A stretch of DNA of 29,656 nt from a virus (Duplodnaviria > Heunggongvirae > Uroviricota > Caudoviricetes): the IMG/VR virus record IMGVR_UViG_2718218453_000002; one strand, given 5' to 3'. Positions 21,464 to 22,085 of this stretch are shown here, piece by piece (the stretch's first letter is position 1; each line of letters begins with the position of its first letter). A program made the position numbers and the translations under genes. A model generated the notes under the pieces. The model worked only from the letters and a program-made list of their open reading frames with translations, had not been told where the DNA came from and did not search any database.

Positions 21464-21655
21464 TTATTTGTGCATTCTGATGTGGTTTAACAGGTGTTTG
21501 ATAACGACCGTAAGCTCATCTTTACTGGCTTGCTCGACCATTTTTTCGGTGTAGCTTTCCACCTCACGAGAACTCAGATCGTTATTTGAAGCCATTACGG
21601 TCAGCTTTTTTGCCCAATCGGCAAACGGGTCTATCGATGAAAGGGAATTATGCAT
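21464..21655 (-). CDS. Possible small ORF (63 aa), uncertain
   Basis: In-frame ATG at 21655 with GAGG upstream; its start overlaps the divergent plus-strand gene start in a CATG palindrome. The longer track ORF (to 21742) would run antisense into the neighbouring gene. Could be non-coding. Confidence 0.2.
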   Translation of the reverse strand: MHNSLSSIDPFADWAKKLTVMASNNDLSSREVESYTEKMVEQASKDELTVVIKHLLNHIRMHK

Positions 21656-22085
21656 GTCCAAAAACCTCGAATTATTTAACCAGCAGACGGCGGAAATTTT
21701 TGCGGTGTTATGGGATAACTTCCCGGTGCCGCAGGTCATCACCTACGAAAAATTTAACGCCGCGCTACCTGATGACTACTTTGACCAACTTAACTCACCG
21801 GAAATGAAAGCACTGAATCAGTTGCGTAGTGTGGTTGAGGGTACATTCACTTTTCTCAGTGAAAACGGCTACATCCAGTATGAAACAGACCATCAGACTT
21901 ATTTTCGGGATGTGCGCCTGACCGAGAAAGCACTCGCCGTGCTCAACAAAAAGCCCGAGGCACTCGGCGGTAATGAAACGATGGGCGATAAGATTATCAG
22001 TGCGGTGAAAGACGGGACACCCGGAGTTATTGCCGGTGCGGTGACAAACCTGCTTTCGCTCGGTGTCAATCTGGTAACCAACTAA
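21654..22085 (+). CDS. Hypothetical protein with C-terminal hydrophobic segment
   Basis: 143-aa ORF with ATG start and AAGGGAA Shine-Dalgarno 6 nt upstream; C-terminus GTPGVIAGAVTNLLSLGVNLV looks like a membrane tail anchor. Sits in the cos-to-A interval where P2 carries tin and old. Confidence 0.55.
   Translation: MSKNLELFNQQTAEIFAVLWDNFPVPQVITYEKFNAALPDDYFDQLNSPEMKALNQLRSVVEGTFTFLSENGYIQYETDHQTYFRDVRLTEKALAVLNKKPEALGGNETMGDKIISAVKDGTPGVIAGAVTNLLSLGVNLVTN

What the first reader, a model, noticed from the sequence alone, without database searches (positions are those of the whole stretch)
21464..22085. Unknown 143-aa tail-anchored protein in the old/tin position, with a head-to-head overlapping small ORF
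The plus-strand gene (21654-22085) has a good RBS and a hydrophobic C-terminal segment. A minus-strand ORF starts inside the palindrome CATG (21653-21656), so the two start codons overlap on opposite strands; an unusual arrangement if both are real. Either a divergent overlapping gene pair or a single gene with antisense regulation. It occupies the interval where P2 carries superinfection-exclusion genes.
Basis: partly seen in the sequence, partly recalled or inferred. Interest (0 to 1): 0.45.

Follow-up and report, generated by a model that had tools for sequence, protein, structure and literature searches.

The report
Head-to-head phage accessory gene pair
Two real genes of unknown function in a 186/P2-like prophage start back-to-back inside the palindrome CATG, and this arrangement recurs in many temperate phages, so it is a conserved but uncharacterised accessory cassette rather than an annotation artefact.

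Summary
A 143-aa gene (21654-22085, +) and a 63-aa gene (21655-21464, -) start inside CATG 21653-21656. Both are under purifying selection (dN/dS 0.08 and 0.20). The geometry holds in 63 of 63 related enterobacterial loci.

The 143-aa protein belongs to a large phage-restricted family (phrog_2266; 756 clusters at 50% identity). It has an acidic winged-helix domain plus a C-terminal helical hairpin. It has no Pfam, NCBIfam, PADLOC or PDB relative.

In 19 of 55 distant lineages from P2-like and Mu-like phages, the family member also has a small divergent partner whose ATG overlaps in CATG.

"Tail-anchored" is not supported. The C-terminal helix is borderline hydrophobic here and amphipathic and charged across the family.

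The window is a 186-like prophage. The cassette lies between gpA and cos, at the far end of a LexA-controlled tum-like operon. The 63-aa gene is in the operon's sense and the 143-aa gene is antisense.

My inferred model is mutually exclusive expression: the 143-aa protein in the lysogen, the 63-aa protein after induction, probably serving phage-phage or phage-host conflict. No promoters could be identified and no function is shown.

The parts
21654..22085 (+). 143-aa gene: acidic winged-helix domain (residues ~1-97) plus C-terminal helical hairpin (110-142); member of phrog_2266
21464..21655 (-). 63-aa partner gene: predicted three-helix protein with a His-rich C-terminus; member of phrog_2454
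   Evidence: phrog_2454 match, E 3e-39, over residues 30-92 of the longer ORF. 58 homologue clusters of 63-64 aa. dN/dS 0.20. AF2 model of three helices, pLDDT 79.
21653..21656 (.). CATG palindrome holding both start codons (2-nt overlap)
   Evidence: Sequence. Conserved in 63 of 63 enterobacterial loci and in 19 distant lineages.
21657..21710 (.). First ~19 codons of the 143-aa gene, which are also the upstream or leader region of the 63-aa gene. Unusually conserved at synonymous sites and retained in all deletion variants.
   Evidence: Third-position entropy is 0.45-0.68 here against ~1.0 further into the gene. 14 loci delete the rest of the gene but keep these 57 nt.
21346..21447 (-). 33-aa hydrophobic ORF 16 nt downstream of the 63-aa stop codon, with its own AAGGA. 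A lineage-specific, dispensable possible third gene.
   Evidence: Intact with RBS in most close relatives, disrupted in at least 8 lineages. dN/dS 0.29 among intact copies. KD19 2.12. No equivalent in distant cassettes.
21298..21324 (-). Intrinsic terminator homologous to t95b of phage 186; ends the minus-strand transcription unit just before cos
   Evidence: Alignment with the 186 right end and its annotated t95b. The window copy has one stem mismatch, so the scan did not list it.
22113..22145 (.). Strong hairpin between the convergent 69-aa and 143-aa genes. The element is conserved in phage 186, where it follows orf97.
   Evidence: Fold energy -32.2 kcal/mol, z -4.2, on the minus-strand RNA, with no U-tract. 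Homologous sequence in 186.
22153..22362 (-). 69-aa gene (phrog_11386), immediately upstream of the cassette on the minus strand
22562..22792 (-). DinI-like gene, 70% identical to residues 71-146 of 186 Tum. Followed by a t95a-like terminator at 22548-22531.
   Evidence: Pfam DinI match, E 2e-17. BLASTP to Tum, E 8e-42. Terminator scan.
23000..23015 (-). Perfect LexA box (CTGTATATTTATACAG) ahead of the 60-aa gene (22978-22796); the p95-equivalent SOS promoter region
   Evidence: One of only two exact matches in the window (the other is at 28499-28514). Position corresponds to the 186 annotation.
21121..21139 (-). cos cohesive-end sequence (GGCGTGGCGGGGAAAGTAT on the minus strand); marks the cassette as lying on the gpA side of cos
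   Evidence: Sequence. The right ends of the Midge and 186 records map here.

Best explanation
SHOWN
- This is a genuine, conserved two-gene accessory cassette of temperate phages.
- One gene encodes an acidic ~140-aa protein (phrog_2266) with a winged-helix domain and a C-terminal helical hairpin.
- The other is a small helical partner gene on the opposite strand. The two start codons overlap in CATG.
- In this 186-like prophage the cassette sits between gpA and cos, at the far end of a LexA-controlled tum-like operon. The 63-aa gene is in the operon's orientation. The 143-aa gene is nested antisense.

INFERRED (working)
- Each gene's ribosome-binding site lies inside the other gene, and there is no intergenic DNA. 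Any transcript of one gene must therefore be antisense to the 5' end of the other, or to all of it.
- The two genes are therefore expressed in a mutually exclusive way.
- The 143-aa gene is transcribed on its own in the quiescent prophage.
- SOS-induced or lytic transcription from the upstream operon runs antisense across it, silences it, and delivers the 63-aa protein (and, in this lineage, a 33-aa membrane peptide).

INFERRED (function)
- The 143-aa protein probably acts through protein-protein contacts in the cytoplasm. It is probably neither a membrane anchor nor a classical repressor.
- It probably serves phage-phage or phage-host conflict, such as exclusion, defence or counter-defence. 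The small protein would be its lytic-phase counterpart.
- The biochemical target is unknown.
For: Both genes are real and the geometry is conserved.

The family is large and found almost only in phages:
- 756 clusters at 50% identity, all ~125-160 aa and matched over full length.
- Every context examined is P2-like or Mu-like phage DNA.
- Only 3 of 72,556 plasmids carry it.

The same CATG head-to-head partner occurs in 19 of 55 distant lineages, and a near-overlap version in 4 more. Those partners are under purifying selection.

Orientation rule: in 34 of 44 partner-bearing cassettes the gene beyond the winged-helix gene's 3' end is convergent. The partner is therefore co-oriented with an upstream phage operon (examples).

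SOS operon context: perfect LexA box, Tum C-half homologue at 70% identity, and t95a/t95b equivalents.

The cassette is accessory. Phage 186 lacks it, with the junction exactly at the 143-aa stop codon. 14 loci carry an internal deletion of the 143-aa gene.

The translation-initiation region is unusually unstructured on both strands, z +2.5 and +1.6.

Support for a protein-binding role rather than DNA binding or membrane anchoring:
- 92% of family members are net acidic, median pI 5.2.
- The conserved basic residues lie outside the recognition helix and the wing.
- The C-terminal helix is amphipathic across the family.
Against: - No promoter was found for either gene. The consensus scan gave nothing. 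A family-wide scan showed no enrichment over coding controls. Which strand is expressed, and when, is therefore entirely inferred.
- A terminator-like hairpin on the minus strand inside the antisense of the 143-aa gene (21967-21955) could block read-through in this window. It is present in only 17 of 39 variants.
- The hairpin at 22113-22145 could also impede read-through.
- The 63-aa gene remains under purifying selection where the 143-aa gene is deleted, pN/pS 0.35. It is therefore not merely an antidote to its neighbour.
- 63-aa alleles of only 53-65% identity pair with 143-aa proteins of 87-95% identity. This argues against tight co-evolution of a protein complex.
- 32 of 55 lineages have the winged-helix gene without any partner. 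Some of these lie in-line within early or late operons. Lysogen-only expression is therefore not universal.
- There is no match to any known defence model.
Confidence: 0.4

Rival explanations
1. The 143-aa protein is a winged-helix DNA-binding regulator that autoregulates and represses the divergent small gene. This would make a miniature genetic switch analogous to C/Cox of P2 or CI/Apl of 186, with operators inside the 5' coding regions.
For: - The Midge annotators called it a putative transcriptional regulator.
- Divergent gene pairs are typical of regulator-target arrangements.
- The first ~57 nt of the gene are unusually conserved at synonymous sites.
- In some loci the gene heads a co-directional string of cargo genes.
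Against: - The family is acidic, with 92% of members net negative.
- No conserved basic residue lies in the recognition helix or the wing.
- No Pfam or NCBIfam regulator family reaches its threshold.
- No convincing operator-like repeat was found around the start codons.
- The downstream gene is convergent in 34 of 44 partner-bearing cassettes.
- Many members lack any divergent target gene.
Confidence: 0.25
2. One reading: the 143-aa protein is a tail-anchored inner-membrane protein that blocks superinfection at the envelope.
For: - In the enterobacterial subfamily the last helix (GVIAGAVTNLLSLGVNLVT) is uncharged and scores KD19 1.56.
- Residues that are charged in most of the family (positions 124 and 127) are Gly and Ala here.
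- The gene lies in the P2 old/tin hotspot.
Against: - The score is below the usual 1.6 threshold, and the segment contains two Asn residues.
- Family-wide, the helix carries about 3 charged residues and has a median KD of 0.83. Only 1 of 144 members reaches the threshold.
- AF2 places it confidently (pLDDT ~89-95) in a helical hairpin of a compact model, pTM 0.85.
Confidence: 0.1
3. A type-I-toxin-like arrangement. The SOS operon delivers a small membrane peptide (the 33-aa ORF) and the 63-aa protein. The oppositely transcribed 143-aa mRNA acts mainly as an antisense RNA that keeps them silent in the lysogen. This would be analogous to tisB/istR-1.
For: - LexA box upstream.
- The 33-aa ORF is strongly hydrophobic, KD19 2.12, and has its own RBS.
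- The 5' ends are necessarily antisense to each other.
Against: - The 33-aa ORF is disrupted in at least 8 lineages and absent from distant cassettes.
- The 143-aa product is itself under strong purifying selection, dN/dS 0.08, so it is not merely an RNA.
- No Rfam match.
Confidence: 0.1
4. The minus-strand ORF is a chance ORF or a mis-annotated start, as most divergent overlaps in databases are.
For: Divergent overlaps make up about 1% of annotated overlaps, and the long ones examined were all mis-annotations (PMC2478687).
Against: - dN/dS 0.20, a codon-position entropy pattern typical of coding sequence, and fixed length of 63-64 aa with a fixed start in 63 of 63 loci.
- Retained and still constrained when the neighbouring gene is deleted.
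- Analogous partners in distant phages are also constrained.
Confidence: 0.02

Closest known systems
Distal part of the SOS (tum) operon of coliphage 186: tum, orf97, terminators t95a and t95b
   Same: - Same genome position, between gpA and cos.
- LexA box ahead of the operon.
- The DinI-like gene is 70% identical to the C-terminal half of Tum.
- Homologous t95b terminator and a homologous hairpin element.
- orf97 is likewise a non-essential gene. When expressed from a plasmid it blocks 186 infection, according to the record annotation.
   Different: - Phage 186 has orf97 (243 aa), and none of the 143-, 63- or 33-aa genes.
- Nothing in 186 is encoded antisense at this position.
- The 60-aa first gene in this window is not similar to the N-terminal half of Tum.
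P2 old/tin and the gpA-gpQ defence hotspot of P2-like phages (Rousset et al. 2022, PMC9122126)
   Same: - Same cos-proximal variable interval.
- The genes are listed in that paper's locus table, as 'hypothetical'.
- They show the accessory, swap-in and swap-out behaviour typical of the hotspot.
   Different: - No homology to Old, Tin or any PADLOC model.
- No anti-phage phenotype has been reported.
- The cassette also occurs at quite different positions in other phages: next to gpD or ogr, and in Mu-like phages.
Face-to-face promoter switches of P2-family phages (186 pR/pL, P2 Pe/Pc). This comparison rests on my own knowledge of Callen, Shearwin and Egan 2004.
   Same: Divergent genes whose transcripts must overlap at their 5' ends, which gives transcriptional interference and mutually exclusive expression.
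   Different: - In those switches the promoters sit in an intergenic region and the regulators are characterised DNA-binding proteins.
- Here the intergenic distance is -2 nt, any promoters would have to lie within coding sequence, and none could be identified.
MarR/PadR-type winged-helix regulators
   Same: Alpha1-beta1-alpha2-alpha3-beta2-beta3 winged-helix topology followed by C-terminal helices.
   Different: - Sequence matches fall below family thresholds.
- The protein is acidic.
- No conserved basic contact residues lie in the recognition helix or the wing.
tisB/istR-1 type I toxin-antitoxin locus of E. coli (comparison from my own knowledge)
   Same: An SOS-controlled transcript that carries a small hydrophobic peptide ORF, opposed by a divergently transcribed RNA overlapping its 5' region.
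   Different: - The opposing transcript here encodes a well-conserved protein.
- The hydrophobic ORF is dispensable and lineage-specific.

Membership tests
phrog_2266 (phage protein family, unknown function) | Full-length match to the family profile | tested here: met
   E 1.1e-61, residues 1-142 against profile positions 1-143 of 144. Distant relatives also match at E 1e-33 to 1e-41.
phrog_2454 (phage protein family, unknown function) | Full-length match of the 63-aa product | tested here: met
   E 3.2e-39, profile positions 1-64 of 64.
phrog_25421 (the small partner family of distant cassettes) | Detectable homology of the 63-aa protein to that family | tested here: not met
   Profile-profile alignment is co-linear (D26-H58) but gives E 0.06 and probability 0.9%. 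Single-sequence tests were negative. The two partner types share position, size and helical class only.
Winged-helix transcription regulators (MarR/PadR-like) | Winged-helix fold | tested here: met
Winged-helix transcription regulators (MarR/PadR-like) | Sequence membership in a curated regulator family | tested here: not met
   No Pfam or NCBIfam family reaches its cut-off for the window protein or for 10 relatives. Best PDB profile hit is MarR at E 0.065.
Winged-helix transcription regulators (MarR/PadR-like) | Conserved basic DNA-contact surface on the recognition helix and wing | tested here: not met
   Conserved basic columns are at positions 92, 98, 113, 119 and 127 only. The helix at 49-70 and the wing at 74-89 have none. 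The family is 92% net acidic.
Winged-helix transcription regulators (MarR/PadR-like) | Sequence-specific DNA binding | not testable with these tools
   Requires a gel shift or footprinting experiment.
Tail-anchored membrane proteins | A single C-terminal transmembrane segment of sufficient hydrophobicity | tested here: inconclusive
   KD19 maximum of 1.56 against the usual 1.6, with two Asn residues in the segment.
Tail-anchored membrane proteins | The hydrophobic anchor is conserved across the family | tested here: not met
   Median KD19 is 0.83 with about 3 charged residues. Only 1 of 144 members reaches 1.6.
Known anti-phage defence systems (PADLOC-DB v2) | Match to a defence protein model | tested here: not met
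   No hit for the 143-aa or 63-aa proteins, or for 10 distant relatives.
P2-like gpA-gpQ hotspot cargo (Rousset et al. 2022) | Located between gpA and gpQ, next to cos, and variably present | tested here: met
   Synteny. Absent from phage 186 and SEN1, and deleted in 14 loci. Listed in the paper's locus table.
P2-like gpA-gpQ hotspot cargo (Rousset et al. 2022) | Anti-phage phenotype | not testable with these tools
   Requires phage challenge of an expressing strain.
186-type SOS (tum) operon | A LexA operator at the promoter, plus a Tum/DinI-domain gene and terminators corresponding to t95a and t95b | tested here: met
T7 gp5.5/gp5.7 (suggested in the Midge record via HHpred, 91%) | Detectable sequence or structural similarity | tested here: not met
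   hhalign probability below 1% for both T7 proteins, with single-sequence templates. No Pfam DUF2675 hit. No BFVD match at E<0.001 and no T7 protein among the 50 best matches.
Face-to-face (convergent-promoter) switch | Two opposed promoters whose transcripts overlap | tested here: inconclusive
   The geometry forces the transcripts to overlap. No sigma-70-like promoter stands out over coding controls.

The most novel reading that the evidence does not exclude
The phrog_2266 gene and its head-to-head partner form a previously undescribed, widespread class of two-state phage cassette. A lysogeny-phase winged-helix effector (an exclusion or defence factor acting by protein binding) would be hard-wired, through obligatory mutual antisense transcription, to a lytic-phase small protein that replaces or neutralises it. 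In effect this would be a self-contained lysogeny/lytic toggle that moves between P2-like and Mu-like phages as a unit.
Probability: 0.2. Interest if true: 0.75.

Novelty: new variant of a known kind. Interest (0 to 1): 0.55.

Why it matters
Divergent gene overlaps are the rarest class of overlap, about 1% of annotated overlaps, and they are usually annotation errors (PMC2478687). This one is demonstrably real. It is conserved across distantly related temperate phages and attached to a large protein family that no database describes.

The arrangement leaves no room for independent regulation. The cassette is therefore a compact natural test case for antisense or transcriptional-interference control of a lysogeny-versus-lytic choice.

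It also lies in the P2 hotspot, where a large share of tested unknown genes have turned out to be anti-phage systems. If it has an exclusion or counter-defence function, that would add a new family with hundreds of members. It would also give a function to genes now listed only as 'hypothetical' in published hotspot catalogues.

Tried and rejected
- T7 gp5.5/5.7 similarity, noted in the Midge record, was not reproduced.
- The tail-anchor/TM reading was rejected at family level.
- afdb50 was not available.
- Pfam, NCBIfam and PADLOC gave nothing above threshold for either protein or for distant relatives.
- Rfam gave no match in 21000-22600.
- Promoter searches led nowhere. The consensus scan was negative. 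A family-wide sigma-70 scoring showed no enrichment over controls. Ogr/B-type dyad searches matched at or below chance level. The single match at 21350-21367 lies in the coding sequence of the 33-aa ORF, so I did not pursue it.
- The operator search found only weak repeats around the start codons.
- Homology between the enterobacterial 63-aa family and the distant partner family is not significant.
- No hydrophobic small ORF follows the partner gene in distant cassettes.
I replaced it with a degenerate DNA motif scan.
- The literature holds only the Midge genome announcement and 'hypothetical' entries in hotspot tables.

Full report
**Context**

The window is a P2-family prophage of the 186 type (genus Eganvirus-like). 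The closest records are phage Midge at 96% identity and FSL SP-004 at 94%.

On the minus strand lie:
- gpA (25314-23092);
- a 60-aa gene (22978-22796);
- a DinI-like gene (22792-22562);
- a 69-aa gene (22362-22153).

On the plus strand lie terminase and portal (18344-19354).

The cohesive-end sequence GGCGTGGCGGGGAAAGTAT lies at 21121-21139, on the minus strand. The right ends of the Midge and 186 records map there. The finding therefore lies between gpA and cos. This is the old/tin position of P2 and part of the gpA-gpQ 'hotspot' of Rousset et al. 2022 (PMC9122126).

A perfect LexA box at 23000-23015 precedes the 60-aa gene. The DinI-like protein is 70% identical to residues 71-146 of 186 Tum. 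Terminators corresponding to t95a (22548-22531) and t95b (about 21324-21298) of phage 186 are present. The minus strand from about 23030 to about 21300 is therefore the equivalent of the 186 SOS operon.

**The observation**

The 143-aa gene runs 21654-22085 on the plus strand, with AAGGGA 7 nt upstream of its ATG. The minus-strand gene starts at 21655 and ends at 21464, encoding 63 aa. The two ATGs share two bases inside CATG 21653-21656.

The mechanical 92-aa GTG-start ORF is not the gene. Three lines of evidence define the 63-aa form:
- the PHROG alignment covers only its residues 30-92;
- homologues are 63-64 aa;
- the RefSeq and Midge annotations agree.

I collected 63 related loci from E. 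coli genomes, species-representative genomes and IMG/VR contigs. Every one has CATG with both reading frames starting there. 49 are intact pairs (142-148 aa and 63-64 aa, one locus with an 86-aa partner ORF). 14 share one internal deletion that leaves the first 19 codons of the 143-aa gene.

Median pairwise dN/dS is 0.08 for the 143-aa gene and 0.20 for the 63-aa gene. Third-position entropy far exceeds that of positions 1 and 2 in both. Both are real protein-coding genes.

**The 143-aa protein**

Word-based homology search finds only enterobacterial relatives of at least 56% identity.

A profile search of 1.84 billion representatives finds 756 clusters at E<=1e-3. All listed hits are about 125-160 aa and match over their full length. 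They all fall in phrog_2266, 'unknown function'. None matches Pfam, NCBIfam or PADLOC above threshold.

AlphaFold (pLDDT 91, pTM 0.85) gives an alpha1-beta1-alpha2-alpha3-beta2-beta3 winged helix at residues 3-97, a linker, and a helical hairpin at 110-142.

The protein is acidic, with net charge -7 and pI 4.6. So are 92% of 144 family representatives. Family-wide conserved basic residues lie after the wing and in the C-terminal helices. None lies in the recognition helix or the wing.

It scores KD19 = 1.56 here. Across the family the median is 0.83, with about three charged residues in that window. The family feature is an amphipathic helix. The enterobacterial branch has replaced two usually charged positions (124 and 127) with Gly and Ala.

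**The 63-aa protein**

It belongs to phrog_2454 and has 58 homologue clusters in Enterobacterales, including Serratia and Edwardsiella.

It is predicted to form three helices (pLDDT 79), and its structural matches are non-specific. The motifs NNDLSSRE and LLN(H/Y)IR are nearly invariant.

Deeply divergent alleles of 53-65% identity are paired with 143-aa proteins that stay 87-95% identical. Nucleotide similarity collapses exactly at the start codons. The CATG junction is therefore also a mosaic boundary.

In the lineage that has deleted the 143-aa gene, the 63-aa gene is still constrained (pN/pS 0.35 against 0.30 in intact loci). It therefore has a role of its own.

A 33-aa hydrophobic ORF with its own AAGGA lies 16 nt downstream of the 63-aa stop codon. 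It is intact in most close relatives (dN/dS 0.29) but disrupted in at least eight lineages.

**The cassette beyond enterobacteria**

Gene neighbourhoods of nine distant family members are all phage DNA, P2-like or Mu-like, at varied accessory positions.

Three of the nine have a 75-80-aa ORF on the opposite strand whose ATG overlaps the winged-helix gene's ATG in CATG.

A degenerate DNA motif for the conserved N-terminus retrieved 120 viral contigs, and 109 encode HMM-confirmed family members. These form 55 clusters at 60% identity:
- 19 clusters contain a CATG-overlapping divergent partner;
- 4 have a homologous partner displaced by about 5 nt;
- 32 have no partner.

The distant partners form one family, phrog_25421. 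It carries the motif MDWVRARxYW...LAEAL and many members have Cys-rich C-termini. Median pI is 8.2, and the genes are under purifying selection, pN/pS 0.18-0.34.

Homology of the enterobacterial 63-aa family to phrog_25421 is not demonstrable. The profile-profile alignment is co-linear, but E is 0.06.

In 34 of 44 partner-bearing cassettes, the gene beyond the 3' end of the winged-helix gene is convergent. The usual layout is therefore: phage operon, then the antisense winged-helix gene, then the partner in the operon's sense. The window shows exactly this layout, with the 69-aa gene, the 143-aa gene antisense, and the 63-aa gene.

The family is nearly absent from plasmids, at 3 of 72,556 records. 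It is present in only 11 deposited phage genomes.

**How it probably works**

Shown: there is no intergenic DNA. Each Shine-Dalgarno sequence lies in the other gene's first codons. The translation-initiation region is unusually free of RNA structure on both strands, z +2.5 and +1.6.

Inferred: any mRNA for one gene is antisense to the 5' end of the other. If transcription comes from the upstream operon, it is antisense to the other gene's whole length. Expression should therefore be mutually exclusive, through transcriptional interference and RNA pairing.

Given the orientation rule and the LexA-controlled operon upstream, I propose two states:
- the 143-aa gene is the prophage-state gene;
- the 63-aa gene (with the 33-aa ORF here) is delivered on SOS or lytic transcription that at the same time silences its neighbour.

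The acidic winged helix lacks a conserved DNA-contact surface and carries an amphipathic hairpin. That suggests a protein-binding effector. The variable, moron-like placement in temperate phages, inside the P2 hotspot, suggests a role in phage-phage or phage-host conflict.

**Weaknesses of the model**

- No promoter could be identified for either gene.
- A terminator-like hairpin at 21967-21955 (present in 17 of 39 variants) and the strong hairpin at 22113-22145 may limit read-through.
- More than half of the family lineages lack the partner, and some of those genes sit in-line within early or late operons.
- There is no evidence for a physical complex between the two proteins.

**Comparison and novelty**

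The closest known systems are:
- the distal part of the 186 SOS operon (tum and orf97);
- the P2 old/tin hotspot cargo;
- the face-to-face promoter switches of P2-family phages;
- MarR/PadR-type winged-helix regulators;
- the tisB/istR-1 type I toxin-antitoxin locus.

The cassette shares position or logic with each of these. It is a member only of the uncharacterised PHROG families and of the class 'hotspot cargo'.

The genes appear in the literature only as 'hypothetical' entries and in a genome announcement.

Divergent overlaps are rare and usually artefacts (PMC2478687). A real one conserved across P2-like and Mu-like phages is unusual. I rate it a new variant of a known kind: a phage accessory cassette with antisense or interference control. 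Interest is moderate, and function is still open.

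Noticed in passing
window 19426-21005 (minus strand): A two-gene cargo unit sits between cos and the portal gene. The first gene encodes 275 aa (phrog_13337; RefSeq calls it 'P-loop NTPase family'; weak DUF7947 hit). The second encodes 249 aa (phrog_8999; weak match of residues 25-88 to a ZorB/MotB-like PADLOC model, E 3e-4). This is a candidate defence system on the portal side of cos and matches no complete PADLOC system.
   Followed up: partly
window 22796-23015 (minus strand): A perfect LexA box (CTGTATATTTATACAG, 23000-23015) precedes a 'split Tum'. 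The split Tum is a 60-aa gene (phrog_1993) with no similarity to the N-terminal half of 186 Tum, followed by a separate DinI-like gene that is 70% identical to Tum residues 71-146.
   Followed up: partly
window 22113-22145: A 15-bp hairpin (-32 kcal/mol, z -4.2 on the minus-strand RNA) without a U-tract lies between the convergent 69-aa and 143-aa genes. The same ~65-nt element (ctaacgcctcgcg...cagcactgaaagcgagtttcagc) follows orf97 in phage 186, so it is conserved while the genes on either side differ. It may be a cargo-exchange boundary, an RNA processing or stability element, or a weak terminator.
   Followed up: partly
window 21346-21447 (minus strand): An unannotated 33-aa hydrophobic ORF (MLSLVYENRWATIFLLIFASMCLNSVIGALRGQ) has its own AAGGA RBS and lies 16 nt downstream of the 63-aa stop codon. 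It is intact in most close relatives (dN/dS 0.29) and decayed in at least 8 lineages. RefSeq and the Midge record instead annotate plus-strand ORFs across this stretch (21163-21360 and the equivalent of 21173-21433).
   Followed up: yes
L003 3858-3930 and 13 further loci (e.g. L014, L017, L018, L037-L046): A recurrent deletion variant removes ~370 nt of the 143-aa gene but keeps its first 19 codons, now followed by a stop. The 63-aa gene stays intact and constrained. This suggests the retained 57 nt are needed to express the 63-aa gene.
   Followed up: yes
window 21298-21324: The t95b-like terminator has a mismatch in its stem in this window (GGTGTCGG where most relatives have GGTGCCGG). This weakens the predicted hairpin, and the fold is no better than shuffled sequences.
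   Followed up: partly
L071 3766-4002, L074 3775-4002, L078 2010-2252 and many IMG/VR loci (L105, L117, L156, L159 ...): Many small partner proteins of distant cassettes end in Cys-rich tails (CCCKR, CRCCRCCGH, CRHCCGCK, CRCCRCCRSC). The enterobacterial partner ends in a His-rich tail (KHLLNHIRMHK). These may be metal-binding C-termini.
   Followed up: no
L004 4457-5548 (E. coli strain 144) and Rousset Table S5A entries: In one enterobacterial lineage the 145-aa homologue is followed on the same strand by a ComEC/Rec2-type metallo-beta-lactamase-fold gene and then a convergent 162-aa gene. Further cargo is therefore attached to the cassette in that lineage.
   Followed up: no
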